Source of the DNA: a virus
Strand: one strand, 5' to 3'
Virus genome (UHGV): UHGV-0088497
Length of the DNA stretch: 27,542 nt
The notes under the pieces are model-generated. The model was given only the letters and a program-made list of their open reading frames with translations, did no database searches and was not told the DNA's origin. The position numbers and the translations under genes were made by a program. Below are positions 1,549-4,001 of the stretch, piece after piece (within the stretch, counting starts at the first letter, position 1; each line of letters begins with the position of its first letter).

Positions 1549-1675
1549 CGCGCAGATTTTGTTTGCACGAATCCCTCGCCAAAAGGCGAATAAAAGTTTG
1601 GGTTTCGTTTCAGTAAATGCCCCATCTATAGGTATTTAGCGCAACGGGTTGCTCCATCGTTATTATGCTGTTGTG

Positions 1676-1714
1676 TTAAATAGCTACCAAGATAGGTAGT
1701 GAGTAGCTATTTAA
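1676..1714. promoter_or_regulatory. perfect 12-bp inverted repeat TTAAATAGCTAC / GTAGCTATTTAA with 15-bp spacer (inner CTACC...GGTAG repeat) in divergent intergenic region
   Basis: Read directly at 1676-1687 and 1703-1714, between divergently oriented genes (1548 minus, 1774 plus). Likely a dimeric regulator site or hairpin. Confidence 0.4.
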
Positions 1715-1773
1715 CTACAGCAATGATTAGAGTAATCTGGATATCCTAATGTCTTTATTTTTAAGGTTTTTTT

Positions 1774-2259
1774 GTGGCTAGTGAAAAAAAATTAAAAATT
1801 CCATTCGATACCAACAAAAACTATTACAGTGGAATTCGTGGTGTTTTGAGCGGTATTGTTTGCTCTATGATCGGTGTTTATATTACCGGGCTATTTAGCG
1901 GAGCTATTAGTGTTGCTCAGATTTTTGAAATGCCAATAGTTATCATCAGTGCTTGGGTCGCTTTGTGTGCTTCTTTGTGGGCGATATCATATAAATTTGA
2001 AGATAGGGTTATATGCACATTTGGTCGTAATTGGGATTGTCCTAGAACAGCGAACTTTTTTTTATTTTTGCTTTACATAATGATAGGTGTCTTTTGTTCA
2101 CTTATATTCGAGGCCTTTCTGAAGGGGGGGGCCTCCCGCTCCTTATATGTTTCAATGGCGGGCTTTTTAGTTTTCTTACGACTTTTTTGTTTCTTCAGCA
2201 TTAAGAACTATGCTCAAATACAAAGCAAATCTGTTGATGAAACTAACCATGAAAAGTAA
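1774..2259 (+). CDS. AT-rich polytopic membrane protein (about 4 predicted TM helices), accessory gene beside the immunity region
   Basis: 161-aa ORF with GTG start at 1774 preceded by AAGG (1763-1766); four hydrophobic stretches; sequence visibly more AT-rich than flanking phage genes; contains a G8 tract (2124-2131) and a T8 tract (2056-2063). Confidence 0.6.
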   Translation: MASEKKLKIPFDTNKNYYSGIRGVLSGIVCSMIGVYITGLFSGAISVAQIFEMPIVIISAWVALCASLWAISYKFEDRVICTFGRNWDCPRTANFFLFLLYIMIGVFCSLIFEAFLKGGASRSLYVSMAGFLVFLRLFCFFSIKNYAQIQSKSVDETNHEK

Positions 2260-2291
2260 CCTGTATTAATAGGGTATCCAGATTGTTAAAG

Positions 2292-2318
2292 AGCGAAGCG
2301 TCCGATGGGCGCTTTTTT
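2292..2318 (+). terminator. putative intrinsic terminator (imperfect stem followed by T6)
   Basis: GAGCGAAGCGTCCGATGGGCGCTTTTTT shortly after the stop of 1774-2259; stem is imperfect. Confidence 0.3.
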
Positions 2319-2403
2319 GTTGCCTGCGAATCATCCGGTTATTCATATGCCACCGGCGGCTACTTCGTGGGCGTCCTGCCTGTTCGCTGTTGATGAATGA
2401 AAT

Positions 2404-2460
2404 CTAACTTAACTTAGCTTTGAGATCAAGAAAAAACACCAAACCATTCTTAGCTTGATG
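2404..2460. promoter_or_regulatory. OL-like operator repeats (CTAACTTAACTTAG; CTTAGCTT motif twice)
   Basis: CTAAC-N4-CTTAG at 2404-2417 and CTTAGCTT at 2413-2420 and 2449-2456 share the half-site seen in the cI/cro intergenic operators (3136-3203). Confidence 0.4.
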
Positions 2461-2483
2461 TTAAGAGGAAGGTTAGAGGTGGG

Positions 2484-3110
2484 TTAAAGTTCGTACTGAA
2501 CGCCTTTGACAACTCCGATAATCAGGCAATTACCGTTTATTGAAATGTTTGGATAGCGTGGATTCAAGGGAACTAAGAACTTTTGAGGCCCATCGATGAC
2601 GAGTTTTTTTACAGTAGCCTCGCTTGTCCCATCAAGCCTGGCTACGACTATCTTTCCATTAAATGGCTCTGCATCAGGATCTACTATGACCGTTGCCCCT
2701 TCTGGGATTGTGGGGAGCCCATTAGGGTTTGTCATCGAATCACCTTTGACCTCCAATGCAAAGGAGCTATCACCTATCCTGAGTGATGTTTCTACCCACT
2801 TATCTACTTCACTGAAAACTTCTGCTGCTTTACATTCTGTAAACTGTCCAGCCTGAACCCAAGATATCACCGGAATCCTTCGCATCTTGGTTATCAGATT
2901 CCCTTCGAATTCAGTGCCATAAAGTATGTAATCAATTGATGTGTTGAAATACTTTGCAAGTTTCGCAAGTGACTCACCGCCTGGCACATTAATGTCTTTT
3001 TCCCAATACCCAACCGCCACATCGCTAACACCACAGAACTTACCCAGTTCTTTCTGCGAGGTTTTAGTTATGCGCCTGAGAGCTTTGATGCGCTGACCGA
3101 CAGTTTCCAT
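2484..3110 (-). CDS. cI: CI-like prophage repressor (N-terminal HTH_XRE, C-terminal S24/LexA-like autopeptidase)
   Basis: HTH segment QKELGKFCGVSDVAVGYWE; S24 hallmark GDSM (Ser) with downstream Lys (KKLV). ATG at 3110 gives METVGQRIKAL; the ORF-track start at 3143 is TTG and unlikely. Divergent from the cro-like gene. Confidence 0.85.
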   Translation of the reverse strand: METVGQRIKALRRITKTSQKELGKFCGVSDVAVGYWEKDINVPGGESLAKLAKYFNTSIDYILYGTEFEGNLITKMRRIPVISWVQAGQFTECKAAEVFSEVDKWVETSLRIGDSSFALEVKGDSMTNPNGLPTIPEGATVIVDPDAEPFNGKIVVARLDGTSEATVKKLVIDGPQKFLVPLNPRYPNISINGNCLIIGVVKGVQYEL

Positions 3111-3133
3111 TTGAACACCATAAAAAATTAAAA

Positions 3134-3205
3134 GGCTAAGCAATCTTAGTTTTTATTGACCAAAGTTAGATTGGTTATTAATATCTAATCAAACTTAGCT
3201 AAGGG
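3134..3205. promoter_or_regulatory. OR-like operator/promoter region between divergent cI and cro (PR candidate -35 TTGACC 3156-3161, -10 TAATAT 3179-3184)
   Basis: Palindromic sites CTAAGCAATCTTAG (3136-3149), CTAATCAAACTTAG (3185-3198) and CTTAGCTAAG (3194-3203); sigma70-like hexamers with 17-bp spacing for the rightward promoter. Confidence 0.6.
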
Positions 3206-3211
3206 GGCATT

Positions 3212-3439
3212 ATGACAACCGATGATATTGAAAACTACTTCGGCAGTACTGAGAAAGTTGCCGAGTTTTTTGGAATCACAAGCGAGGCCGTTTACCAGTG
3301 GCGTAATAGAACTGGTCGCCTAATCCCGAAAGGACGTGCAGCAGAAGCAGCCTATCGGACTGGGGGAAAATTGGTTTTCCATCCCGACCTTTACGAAAAG
3401 CGTAGCGATGCTTCAGTAAAACTCAAACCACAGGAATAA
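3212..3439 (+). CDS. cro: Cro-like small DNA-binding regulator
   Basis: 75-aa ORF divergent from cI, SD AGGGGG upstream of ATG 3212, HTH-like segment FGITSEAVYQWRNRTG; position-typical. Confidence 0.65.
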   Translation: MTTDDIENYFGSTEKVAEFFGITSEAVYQWRNRTGRLIPKGRAAEAAYRTGGKLVFHPDLYEKRSDASVKLKPQE

Positions 3440-3449
3440 GGGGGGAGCT

Positions 3450-4001
3450 GTGGGTAACGAACCTATTTGGAAAGTCGAACGTCAGCCAGCCTGGCTGGTG
3501 GCGGCGATAAAAAAAACGATCACCGATCTTCCTGGTGGTTATGCCGAGGCGGCGGAATGGTTGGGCGTGACAGAGAACGCATTGTTCAACCGCCTTCGTG
3601 TTGACGGCGACCAAATCTTCCCGCTGGGCTGGGCAATGGTTTTACAACGTGCTGGTGGTTCAACTCATATTGCTGATGCCGTTGCGCGCCATTCTCAGGG
3701 CGTATTTGTACCGCTGGCAGATGTCGATGATCTGGATAACGCCGATATCAACCAGCGCCTGATGGAGTCCATCGAATGGATAGGCCGTCATTCGAATTTT
3801 GTACGTAAAGCCACGGCTGATGGGGTAATTGACGCAGATGAGCGTGCTCAGATTGAGGAAAACAGCTATCAGGTTATCGCGAAGTTCCAGGAGCACGTAA
3901 CGCTTCTTTATCGAGTTTTTTGTGTCGCTGAAAAGAGTGACGCCCGCGAGTGTGCAGCTCCGGGCGCCTTGGCGAACAACTCTTCGAGTATGGAGAAATA
4001 A
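3450..4001 (+). CDS. CII-like (CP76-type) lysogeny-establishment regulatory protein
   Basis: 183-aa ORF immediately after cro, GTG start with AAGGGGGGAG upstream. Family call from memory of ~180-aa phage regulatory protein CII (CP76) proteins; not verified. Confidence 0.5.
   Translation: MGNEPIWKVERQPAWLVAAIKKTITDLPGGYAEAAEWLGVTENALFNRLRVDGDQIFPLGWAMVLQRAGGSTHIADAVARHSQGVFVPLADVDDLDNADINQRLMESIEWIGRHSNFVRKATADGVIDADERAQIEENSYQVIAKFQEHVTLLYRVFCVAEKSDARECAAPGALANNSSSMEK

What the first reader, a model, noticed from the sequence alone, without database searches (positions are those of the whole stretch)
2404..3203. Shared operator half-site (CTTAG / ACTTAGCT) on both sides of cI defines putative OL and OR
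Palindromic or near-palindromic sites built on CTAAG-N4-CTTAG occur three times in the cI/cro intergenic region (3136-3203) and again ~30-80 bp downstream of the cI stop (2404-2460). This is the arrangement expected for a CI repressor controlling divergent PR/PRM and a leftward PL, and it gives a testable operator consensus for this immunity type.
Basis: seen in the sequence. Interest (0 to 1): 0.4.

Follow-up and report, generated by a model that had tools for sequence, protein, structure and literature searches.

The report
P22-type repressor operators flanking cI
The short palindromes on both sides of this prophage's repressor gene are very probably the repressor's real DNA-binding sites, laid out almost base for base as in phage P22 but with a different recognition sequence (CTAAG-N4-CTTAG) that had not been worked out for this common immunity type.

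Summary
CTAAG-N4-CTTAG with at most one mismatch occurs only three times in 27.5 kb (2404, 3136, 3185), all in the 325 bp of non-coding DNA flanking cI. Weaker sites lie at 2440 and 3161. None of 20,000 local shuffles reached the observed counts.

- Fifteen relatives from seven genera keep an identical recognition helix and keep the sites in place, while spacers and flanks drift.
- A matrix trained only on relatives ranks these five sites as the window's top five.
- More distant repressors with other recognition helices carry other half-sites (TTAAG, GTAGG), each in both their OR and OL regions. SfV also has its own motif on both sides of cI.
- The layout overlays the annotated P22 switch within 1 bp: OR3/OR2/OR1 spaced 25 and 24 bp around PR, and OL1 inside a leftward promoter (TTGATC-17-TAGATT).

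Corrections: the third OR site is the degenerate 3161-3174, not the CTTAGCTAAG palindrome. OL2 sits inside the cI terminator hairpin.

This is an ordinary lambdoid switch. However, a 2025 paper states that the operator specificity of this repressor group (phage LLS) is unknown, so the consensus is a new, testable prediction. Binding was not measured.

The parts
2484..3110 (-). cI repressor gene (208 aa): HTH N-terminal domain plus S24 self-cleaving C-terminal domain
   Evidence: Pfam HTH_3 and Peptidase_S24. The N-terminal domain is closest to the P22 C2 N-terminal domain (E about 5e-11). The C-terminal domain is closest to lambda CI, with QAG, GDSM and KKL aligned to lambda's QAG, GNSM and KKL. 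The recognition helix SDVAVGYW is invariant in 15 relatives.
3212..3439 (+). cro (75 aa), divergent from cI
   Evidence: Pfam P22_Cro, E 1.2e-11. Closest solved structures are N15 Cro and P22 Cro. Its recognition helix TSEAVYQW has Ala at H3 and Gln at H6, which the published Cro code pairs with A at +5 and G at +6 of the half-site (PMC6649833). That matches CTAAG.
3136..3149 (.). OR3-like operator CTAAGCAATCTTAG (perfect palindrome), containing a PRM -10-like TAAGAT (3148-3143, minus strand)
   Evidence: 19.0 bits. Same position as P22 OR3, which holds the same TAAGAT inside the annotated PRM. The PRM assignment is by analogy only.
3161..3174 (.). OR2-like weak operator CAAAGTTAGATTGG, starting at the last base of the PR -35
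   Evidence: 3 mismatches. Fifth-best matrix score in the window although this site class was not in the training set. Rahnella has CTAATAAAGATTAG here. P22 OR2 (TAAAG-ATTC-CTTTA) starts at the same base of its -35.
3185..3198 (.). OR1-like operator CTAATCAAACTTAG, immediately after the PR -10
   Evidence: 21.4 bits. Same position as P22 OR1.
3156..3184 (+). PR: TTGACC (3156-3161), 17 nt, TAATAT (3179-3184)
   Evidence: Promoter scan. TTGACC is invariant in 16 sequences. It aligns with the annotated P22 PR.
2404..2417 (.). OL1 operator CTAACTTAACTTAG (minus strand CTAAGTTAAGTTAG)
   Evidence: Best matrix score in the window, 24.9 bits. ATCTAACTTAACTTAG is invariant in 15 of 16 relatives although the DNA to its left is unrelated in several of them. 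Rahnella uses the same 16-mer as its OR1.
2401..2429 (-). PL: -35 TTGATC (2429-2424), 17 nt, -10 TAGATT (2406-2401); predicted start near 2394
   Evidence: Read from the sequence. The CTTG of the -35 and TAGATT are conserved; most relatives have TTGACC. It overlays the annotated P22 PL (GGTCAAG, 6 nt, OL1) with the same 6-nt gap.
2440..2453 (.). OL2, probable operator CAAACCATTCTTAG, 36 bp from OL1
   Evidence: 2 mismatches. Fourth-best matrix score, 8.7 bits. The half-sites are conserved while the 4-bp spacer varies (CATT, TATT, TTTT, TAAA). P22 OL2 lies 35 bp from OL1. It overlaps the cI terminator, so part of the conservation has another cause.
2435..2462 (-). cI intrinsic terminator hairpin, followed by a U-run (2434-2428) that runs into the PL -35
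   Evidence: Terminator scan. RNAalifold gives 11 pairs kept in 10 relatives, with G-U changes that work only on the minus-strand RNA and one fully compensated pair.
2284..2294 (-). boxA-like CGCTCTTTAAC in the PL leader
   Evidence: Identical to the CGCTCTTTAAC that I read as boxA within the region annotated 'nutL (boxA)' in P22. Only exact match to GCTCTTTAACAA in the window. Conserved in the relatives that carry an inserted gene here.
1774..2259 (+). Inserted rightward gene (161-aa membrane protein) within the leftward operon, with its terminator at 2295-2315
   Evidence: ORF list and terminator scan. No family hit. Its position and orientation match sieB in P22.

Best explanation
The CTAAG-N4-CTTAG sites are the operators of a P22-C2-type immunity switch.

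Binding. A dimer of the cI product (HTH domain like P22 C2, lambda-like self-cleaving C-terminal domain) binds 14-bp palindromes, one recognition helix (SDVAVGYW) per CTAAG half-site. The symmetry axis falls between base pairs.

Right operator. Three sites spaced 25 and 24 bp sit around the promoters:
- OR1 (3185-3198) covers the PR start.
- OR2 (3161-3174, weak, probably filled cooperatively) lies in the PR spacer.
- OR3 (3136-3149) covers the likely PRM -10 (TAAGAT).
Repressor therefore shuts off cro and the rightward early genes and autoregulates cI.

Left operator. OL1 (2404-2417) fills the spacer and -10 of a leftward promoter (TTGATC-17-TAGATT). Repressor there blocks the early-left transcript, which would otherwise run through a P22-like leader with a boxA, antisense across the inserted membrane-protein gene, and into the early-left genes. 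OL2 (2440-2453), 36 bp upstream, probably assists OL1 and also lies within the DNA that encodes the cI terminator hairpin.

Cro is expected to bind the same sites and favour lytic growth. SOS-induced self-cleavage of the repressor would lift repression.

Shown here: the sites, their enrichment, conservation, co-variation and geometry. Inferred: binding, occupancy order, cooperativity, the exact transcript starts, and PRM activation.
For: - Enrichment. All three hits with at most 1 mismatch, and 4 of 6 hits with at most 2, lie in the 325 bp flanking cI. 0 of 20,000 local shuffles reach this.
- Conservation. Sixteen sequences were compared: the window, three other E. coli prophages, two phages, and Enterobacter, Kosakonia, Kluyvera, Serratia and Rahnella loci. 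The repressors are 82-99% identical with an invariant helix. The half-sites stay in place while spacers and flanks vary, and the cI DNA of the compared E. coli and phage relatives (other than the near-identical strain 1943) is only 77-79% identical.
- Cross-validation. A matrix trained on relatives only ranks OL1, OR1, OR3, OL2 and OR2 as the top 5 of about 27,500 positions.
- Co-variation. Xenorhabdus and Photorhabdus repressors (helix SHVAISQW, near P22's SNVAISQW) have clear TTAAG-N4-CTTAA sites in OR, and their OL regions show CTTAA half-sites rather than clear full sites. Morganella and Proteus repressors (NRVTVTGW) have GTAGG-N4-CCTAC in both OR and OL. SfV has its own GGTACA-type motif in both.
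- Geometry. In the annotated P22 record, OR centres are 25 and 23 bp apart (here 25 and 24). OR2 starts at the last base of the PR -35 in both. The gap between OL1 and the PL -35 is 6 nt in both. OL1 to OL2 is 35 bp in P22 and 36 bp here. TAAGAT lies inside OR3 in both. The boxA-like CGCTCTTTAAC in the PL leader is identical.
- P22 consensus. It is ATTTAAGATATCTTAAAT, with TTAAG half-sites, a 4-bp centre and Val33 contacting the TTAA (PMC5175364). The equivalent Val is kept here.
- Cro code. Cro has Ala at H3 and Gln at H6, which predicts A at +5 and G at +6 (PMC6649833), as found in CTAAG.
Against: - No binding or transcript data exist for this repressor or any close relative. PMC12315714 states that the specificity of the LLS repressor is unknown.
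- OR2 matches only 7 of 10 half-site positions.
- OL2 overlaps the cI terminator stem-loop, which alone explains much of its conservation.
- PL in this window scores only 8 of 12 against the sigma-70 consensus and was not reported by the promoter scan.
- The PL transcript must pass, in antisense, the terminator of the inserted gene and 490 bp of that gene before reaching the early-left genes. A second promoter-like site lies at 1690-1662.
- One relative (Serratia aquatilis) lacks OL1.
- The OL evidence for the Xenorhabdus and Photorhabdus group rests on half-sites, not on clear full sites.
Confidence: 0.88

Rival explanations
1. The conserved blocks are only promoter and terminator elements (PR, PRM, PL hexamers and the cI terminator). 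The palindromic look is incidental and no repressor reads CTAAG.
For: Every site touches a promoter hexamer or the terminator: OL1 overlaps the PL -10, OR3 holds TAAGAT, OR2 abuts the PR -35, and OL2 is in the hairpin.
Against: The conserved bases extend well outside the hexamers and form dyads with a variable 4-bp centre. The same 16-mer serves as OL1 everywhere and as OR1 in Rahnella. The half-site changes together with the recognition helix in distant relatives while the promoter layout stays the same. P22 sites at the same positions are annotated as C2 repressor operators.
Confidence: 0.03
2. The site at 2404-2417 is a real repressor site but not part of a promoter. It would be a distal auxiliary site (for example for looping to OR), and the true early-left promoter would lie at 1549-1773, next to the early-left genes.
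For: A promoter-like TTGGTA-17-CATAAT lies at 1690-1662 on the minus strand. That region holds strong inverted repeats. A convergent gene and its terminator lie between 2404 and the early-left genes.
Against: There is no CI-type site with 2 or fewer mismatches in 1549-1773. The hexamers TTGNNN-17-TAGATT around OL1 are conserved in 15 relatives and overlay the annotated P22 PL. The downstream leader carries a P22-type boxA-like sequence. P22 likewise has a rightward gene (sieB) inside its leftward operon. In SfV the same leader runs straight into a leftward gene with no inserted gene between them.
Confidence: 0.05
3. Sub-claim only: 2440-2453 is just the cI terminator and not an operator, so OL has a single site.
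For: The left half (CAAAC) and the G of CTTAG are stem bases of a hairpin whose pairing is maintained in 10 relatives. The site has 2 mismatches and scores only 8.7 bits. A site 36 bp from OL1 and upstream of the -35 is not needed for repression.
Against: The loop bases AAG (minus strand) are almost invariant while the next three loop bases vary freely, which a terminator does not require. It is the fourth-best site in the window for a matrix that never saw it. P22 has OL2 at the matching distance of 35 bp.
Confidence: 0.35
4. The sites are read by Cro or by the CII-like YmfL protein only, not by the cI repressor.
For: Cro is encoded next to the sites and its helix fits the A+5/G+6 rule (PMC6649833).
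Against: In every studied lambdoid switch CI and Cro share operators (PMC6649833). The half-site follows changes in the cI recognition helix across relatives. The closest solved relative of the cI N-terminal domain, P22 C2, binds a site with the same geometry and an AAG core (PMC5175364). I am not aware of CII-type activators that recognise palindromes with a 4-bp centre; this rests on my own knowledge.
Confidence: 0.03

Closest known systems
Salmonella phage P22 immunity region (C2 repressor, Cro, OR1-3, OL1-3, PR, PRM, PL, nutL)
   Same: - The repressor N-terminal domain is the closest solved relative, and Cro belongs to Pfam P22_Cro.
- Sites are 14-bp cores: 5-bp half-sites with an AAG/CTT core and a 4-bp centre (PMC5175364).
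- OR centre spacing is 25 and 23 bp in P22, and 25 and 24 bp here.
- OR2 starts on the last base of the PR -35 in both, and OR3 contains TAAGAT in both.
- The gap between OL1 and the PL -35 is 6 nt in both. OL1 to OL2 is 35 bp in P22 and 36 bp here.
- CGCTCTTTAAC occurs in the PL leader of both, and both have a rightward membrane-protein gene inside the leftward operon.
   Different: - The half-site is CTAAG, not TTAAG. The recognition helix is SDVAVGYW versus SNVAISQW, that is N32D, I35V, S36G and Q37Y in P22 numbering.
- The C-terminal domain is closer to lambda CI than to any other solved structure.
- There is no recognisable OL3.
- There is a 26-nt gap between OR3 and the cI start, instead of a start codon abutting OR3.
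- There is no N (gene 24) homologue and no nutR-like boxA after cro.
- The CII-like gene is of the YmfL/CP76 type rather than P22 C1.
Escherichia phage LLS and the CPS-53-like (yfdP-yfdS) prophages of E. coli, phage mEp460_4F5
   Same: This is the same immunity group. cI is 90-92% identical in protein for LLS and the CPS-53-like prophages examined, with an identical recognition helix, and all five sites lie at the same positions. mEp460_4F5 was matched at the DNA level only (78.5%); its 89% repressor identity to LLS is from PMC12315714. 484 of 5,426 complete E. coli genomes hold at least 80% of window 2260-3460.
   Different: DNA identity is 77-79%. The inserted gene left of OL differs, and LLS has an unrelated PL leader. 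[quoted passage not shown]
Bacteriophage lambda CI/Cro switch
   Same: Divergent cI and cro, three operators about 24 bp apart in OR, OL downstream of cI with a leftward promoter, and a self-cleaving C-terminal domain whose QAG, GDSM and KKL align with lambda's QAG, GNSM and KKL. I take these to correspond to lambda's Ala-Gly cleavage site and catalytic Ser and Lys (own knowledge).
   Different: Lambda operators are 17 bp with the axis on a base pair, and the half-sites are unrelated (PMC6649833). Lambda Cro has a different fold. Lambda has rexAB between cI and OL, and N next to PL.
Shigella phage SfV, and the Morganella/Proteus and Xenorhabdus/Photorhabdus prophage repressors
   Same: Same order of elements: leader, PL/OL, cI terminator, cI, OR, cro. 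SfV shares the PL leader sequence with the window. Each has its own dyad in both OR and OL.
   Different: Different recognition helices and half-sites: GGTACA type in SfV, GTAGG-N4-CCTAC in Morganella and Proteus, and TTAAG-N4-CTTAA in Xenorhabdus and Photorhabdus. These are separate immunity specificities.

Membership tests
Lambdoid CI/Cro immunity switch, P22 C2 subtype | Repressor with an N-terminal HTH domain and a C-terminal S24 self-cleaving domain (cleavage site, Ser and Lys) | tested here: met
   Pfam HTH_3 (E 4e-10) and Peptidase_S24 (E 1.5e-27). QAG, GDSM and KKL align with lambda CI's QAG, GNSM and KKL; I take these to be lambda's A111-G112, S149 and K192 (own knowledge).
Lambdoid CI/Cro immunity switch, P22 C2 subtype | Divergently transcribed cro next to cI | tested here: met
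   75-aa ORF at 3212-3439 (+), Pfam P22_Cro E 1.2e-11. PDB hits to N15 Cro and P22 Cro.
Lambdoid CI/Cro immunity switch, P22 C2 subtype | Three dyad-symmetric operators about two helical turns apart in the cI-cro intergenic region, overlapping PR and PRM | tested here: met
   Sites at 3136-3149, 3161-3174 (weak) and 3185-3198, with centres 25 and 24 bp apart. PR is TTGACC-17-TAATAT. The PRM position is inferred by analogy with P22.
Lambdoid CI/Cro immunity switch, P22 C2 subtype | The same operator type downstream of cI, overlapping a leftward early promoter (OL/PL) | tested here: met
   OL1 at 2404-2417 lies within TTGATC-17-TAGATT on the minus strand, and OL2 is at 2440-2453. Both are conserved in relatives and overlay the annotated P22 PL/OL.
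Lambdoid CI/Cro immunity switch, P22 C2 subtype | P22-type site geometry: 5-bp half-sites with an AAG core, a 4-bp non-contacted centre, and the axis between base pairs | tested here: met
   CTAAG-N4-CTTAG compared with the P22 consensus ATTTAAGATATCTTAAAT (PMC5175364). The centre varies among relatives in the OR and OL2 sites.
Lambdoid CI/Cro immunity switch, P22 C2 subtype | Same immunity specificity as P22 (TTAAG half-site, helix SNVAISQW) | tested here: not met
   The half-site starts with C, not T, at all strong sites. Four recognition-helix residues differ. This is a different immunity type within the same architecture.
Lambdoid CI/Cro immunity switch, P22 C2 subtype | Repressor and Cro physically bind the operators and repress PR and PL | not testable with these tools
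   No binding data for this group were found in the searchable literature (PMC12315714).
N/nut antitermination of the early-left transcript (lambda, P22) | boxA plus a boxB hairpin in the PL leader, and an N-family protein encoded downstream | tested here: inconclusive
   A boxA-like CGCTCTTTAAC identical to the P22 nutL sequence is present at 2294-2284 on the minus strand. I saw no P22-like boxB after it, no N-like ORF among the leftward ORFs, and no boxA after cro. PMC12315714 reports no N homologue in LLS.

The most novel reading that the evidence does not exclude
The early-left transcript of this phage group may be antiterminated without any N protein. The PL leader carries a boxA-like sequence identical to P22 nutL's and nearly identical to the ribosomal RNA operon boxA. 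It also carries a small hairpin (CCGGT...ACCGG) that is kept by compensatory changes in SfV. No N gene and no rightward nut site are visible. The leader might recruit host Nus factors on its own, or work like an HK022 put RNA, to carry polymerase through the antisense terminator and the inserted gene. In addition, OL2 lying inside the DNA that encodes the cI terminator hairpin could couple repressor occupancy to cI 3'-end formation or to PL.
Probability: 0.15. Interest if true: 0.55.

Novelty: new member of a known kind. Interest (0 to 1): 0.3.

Why it matters
This immunity type is common. 484 of 5,426 complete E. coli genomes hold at least 80% of this 1.2-kb segment, and close relatives occur in Enterobacter, Kosakonia, Kluyvera, Serratia and Rahnella. 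Its only studied member, phage LLS, was published in 2025 with the statement that its operator specificity is unknown (PMC12315714).

The consensus CTAAG-N4-CTTAG, with five mapped sites and three promoters, gives a ready design for gel shifts, reporters and heteroimmunity tests.

Together with the TTAAG (P22-like) and GTAGG (Morganella/Proteus) groups, it forms a natural series for asking how changes at positions H1, H5 and H6 of a C2-type recognition helix re-target the outer bases of the half-site.

It does not change the picture of how lambdoid switches work.

Tried and rejected
- Third OR site. The CTTAGCTAAG palindrome (3194-3203) was rejected: its right half is not conserved and overlaps the likely cro ribosome-binding site.
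- Rightward promoter at OL. The 30-nt similarity between 2390-2419 and 3171-3200 suggested one, but by eye I found no usable -35, and the similarity is explained by the shared operator.
- OL3. P22 has a third site 29 bp beyond OL2. By eye I found nothing convincing at 2460-2483, and that stretch is not conserved.
- Rfam. A scan of the whole window at gathering thresholds gave no hit, so the PL leader belongs to no curated RNA family.
- Leader fold. The 139-nt leader is no more stable than its shuffles (z = 0.54).
- Literature. Searches for the exact site sequences and for CPS-53 or mEp460 operators found no prior description.
- Inserted gene. Pfam, PHROGs and PADLOC gave no family for the membrane protein or its counterparts in relatives. 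These proteins are unrelated to each other and to P22 SieB.
- CI-type sites at 1549-1773. None has 2 or fewer mismatches, so that region is not a second OL.
Full report
**What is in the window.** The region is the early control region of a lambdoid prophage.
- cI lies at 2484-3110 on the minus strand (208 aa). It has an HTH_3 domain and a Peptidase_S24 domain.
- cro lies at 3212-3439 on the plus strand (Pfam P22_Cro).
- A YmfL/CP76-type CII-like gene lies at 3450-4001.
- The leftward early genes start at 1548.
- A rightward 161-aa membrane-protein gene (1774-2259) lies between those genes and cI.
- The repressor's N-terminal domain is closest to the P22 C2 N-terminal domain among solved structures. 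Its C-terminal domain is closest to lambda CI, with the QAG, GDSM and KKL motifs aligned.

**Checking the observation.** CTAAG-N4-CTTAG with at most one mismatch occurs three times in 27,542 bases, at 2404, 3136 and 3185, against 0.57 expected.
- With two mismatches there are six hits. A fourth (2440) also lies next to cI.
- The two non-coding stretches that flank cI total 325 bp. In 20,000 dinucleotide-preserving shuffles of those stretches alone, none reached the observed counts. The AT-richness of the intergenic DNA therefore does not explain the result.
- ACTTAGCT is shared by 2412-2419 and 3193-3200.
- One detail needs correcting. The intergenic region holds two strong sites and one degenerate site (CAAAGTTAGATTGG, 3161-3174). 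The CTTAGCTAAG palindrome at 3194-3203 is OR1's right half followed by what looks like the cro ribosome-binding site.

**Conservation.** The phage and E. coli collections hold many relatives at about 79% DNA identity. These include phage LLS, vB_EcoM-689R6, mEp460_4F5 and CPS-53-like prophages, and 484 of 5,426 complete E. coli genomes cover at least 80% of the 1.2-kb query. A scan of one genome per species added loci from Enterobacter, Kosakonia, Kluyvera, Serratia and Rahnella.
- In the sixteen sequences compared, the repressors are 82-99% identical and the helix-turn-helix GVSDVAVGYWEKD never changes.
- The operators stay in register: CTAAG..ATCTTAG at the cI-proximal site, TTGACC-(A/T)A(A/T)(G/T/A)-N4-(A/C)TT(G/T/A)G in the middle, and ATCTAA(T/C/A)-N4-(C/A)TTAG next to cro.
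- Downstream of cI, ATCTAACTTAACTTAG is invariant in 15 of 16 sequences, although the DNA immediately to its left is unrelated in LLS, Kosakonia, Rahnella and others.
- The 4-bp centres vary at the OR sites and at 2440-2453, as expected for bases the protein does not contact.
- A position weight matrix was built only from relatives, leaving out the window and its near-identical twin. It places 2402-2419, 3183-3200, 3134-3151, 2438-2455 and 3159-3176 as the five best of all window positions. The last two belong to site classes that were not in the training set.

**Co-variation.** More distant repressors found in the same scan have the same gene order but other recognition helices, and their dyads change accordingly.
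- Xenorhabdus and Photorhabdus (SHVAISQW, close to P22's SNVAISQW) have TTAAG-N4-CTTAA in OR. In their OL regions I saw CTTAA half-sites rather than clear full sites.
- Morganella and Proteus (NRVTVTGW) have GTAGG-N4-CCTAC, present in both OR and OL.
- SfV shares the leftward leader sequence with the window but has a different cI. It carries its own GGTACA-type dyads in its annotated operator region and again between its cI terminator and that leader, inside a clear TTGACA-18-TAATGT leftward promoter.
- This is the pattern expected if the dyads are what the repressor reads.

**Comparison with P22.** The P22 record annotates OR1-3, PR, PRM, OL1-3, PL and nutL. Read side by side, the two regions match to within one base pair.

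| Feature | P22 | This window |
|---|---|---|
| OR centre spacing | 25 and 23 bp | 25 and 24 bp |
| First base of the OR2 core | last base of the PR -35 | last base of the PR -35 |
| OR1 | directly after the PR -10 | directly after the PR -10 |
| Hexamer inside OR3 | TAAGAT, within the annotated PRM | TAAGAT |
| Gap between OL1 and the PL -35 | 6 nt | 6 nt |
| OL1 to OL2 | 35 bp | 36 bp |

- The leftward promoter here is TTGATC (2429-2424), 17 nt, TAGATT (2406-2401). Most relatives have TTGACC. With 8 of 12 consensus matches it falls below the threshold of the simple scan, which I take to be why that scan missed it.
- The transcript it would make begins with a leader that resembles the P22 leader. 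That leader carries CGCTCTTTAAC, identical to the sequence I read as boxA within the annotated P22 nutL region.
- P22 also has a rightward membrane-protein gene (sieB) inside its leftward operon. The convergent gene at 1774-2259 is therefore not an argument against PL.
- The published P22 consensus is ATTTAAGATATCTTAAAT, with TTAAG half-sites, a 4-bp centre and Val33 packed against the TTAA methyl groups (PMC5175364). The window's repressor keeps that valine but differs at four helix positions: N32D, I35V, S36G and Q37Y.
- Cro has Ala at H3 and Gln at H6. The published Cro recognition code pairs these with A at +5 and G at +6 of the half-site (PMC6649833), as in CTAAG.

**The second left site and the terminator.** The stretch 2435-2462 on the minus strand is a hairpin followed by a U-run, directly after the cI stop.
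- Ten relatives keep all 11 pairs. Several changes are G-U changes that pair only in the minus-strand RNA, and one pair is fully compensated. This is the cI terminator.
- The site CAAAC-CATT-CTTAG lies in its 3' stem and loop on the plus strand. On the minus strand the loop reads AAG followed by three variable bases.
- A terminator has no need for a conserved AAG in its loop, and P22 has OL2 at the equivalent distance. I therefore regard 2440-2453 as a probable operator with a second role. This is the weakest of the five assignments.

**Rivals.** The idea that the conservation reflects promoters alone does not explain the dyad symmetry, the reuse of the OL1 16-mer as OR1 in Rahnella, or the co-variation with the helix. 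The idea that the real PL lies at 1549-1773 is not supported: that region has no CI-type site with 2 or fewer mismatches. It does contain a promoter-like site and strong inverted repeats of unknown role.

**Prior knowledge.** None of the site sequences appears in the searchable literature. The 2025 description of phage LLS says that, among repressors of known specificity, the closest relative of its repressor is P22's. [quoted passage not shown] The LLS repressor is 92% identical to this one, with the same helix and the same sites. The consensus derived here therefore fills that gap by computation only.

**Verdict.** This is a new specificity within a well-known architecture: useful and testable, but not surprising. 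Binding, occupancy order, cooperativity and transcript starts remain inferred.

Noticed in passing
window 2284-2294 (minus strand), within the PL leader 2262-2400: CGCTCTTTAAC here is identical to the sequence I read as boxA within the annotated P22 nutL region, and close to the ribosomal RNA operon boxA (the rrn comparison rests on my own knowledge). I saw no N-like gene, no P22-like boxB after it, and no boxA after cro. The LLS paper also reports no N homologue and suggests put-like antitermination.
   Followed up: partly
window 2343-2364 (minus strand); SfV locus L001 about 1515-1535: A small hairpin CCGGT-N12-ACCGG lies in the PL leader. SfV, which has a different immunity type but shares this leader, has CCTGG...CCAGG, so two pairs changed on both sides. 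The leader as a whole folds no better than its shuffles (z = 0.54).
   Followed up: partly
window 1734-1748 and 2270-2284; same places in L003, L005, L006: The inserted gene at 1774-2259 is bracketed by 15-nt inverted repeats (AATCTGGATATCCTA / TAGGGTATCCAGATT). Relatives carry unrelated genes of similar size (144-171 aa; 15-21% identity among those compared) at the same spot. Two of them (L003, L005) have both repeat copies and L006 has only the left one, suggesting a cassette-exchange point or an RNA pairing across the insert.
   Followed up: partly
window 1774-2259 (+): A 161-aa multi-pass membrane protein with no Pfam, PHROG or PADLOC family. It sits where P22 has the superinfection-exclusion gene sieB, so it may be an exclusion or defence gene expressed from the prophage.
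   Followed up: partly
window 1629-1715: A perfect 13-bp inverted repeat GTTAAATAGCTAC-N15-GTAGCTATTTAAC, with a third related copy at 1629-1645. A leftward promoter-like TTGGTA-17-CATAAT lies at 1690-1662. The arms resemble boxA (GCTATTTAAC). This could be a binding site for another regulator or a bidirectional hairpin between the inserted gene and the early-left genes.
   Followed up: no
window 2073-2201 (minus strand): A 42-aa, very lysine-rich ORF lies antisense inside the inserted gene, about 80 nt downstream of the boxA-like sequence on the PL transcript. It is probably a by-product of the Phe/Leu-rich sense strand, but it is the only basic small ORF at the position where N would be.
   Followed up: no
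window 3450-4001 (+) and L003 4179-4719: The CII-like YmfL gene starts 10 nt after cro, with no room for a nutR or terminator. In the near-identical E. coli 1943 prophage the gene is annotated as frameshifted.
   Followed up: no
L012 (Serratia aquatilis) downstream of cI: This relative keeps the OR sites but has lost OL1 (only ATTAACTTAATT remains) and the PL -35. It may be a decaying prophage.
   Followed up: no
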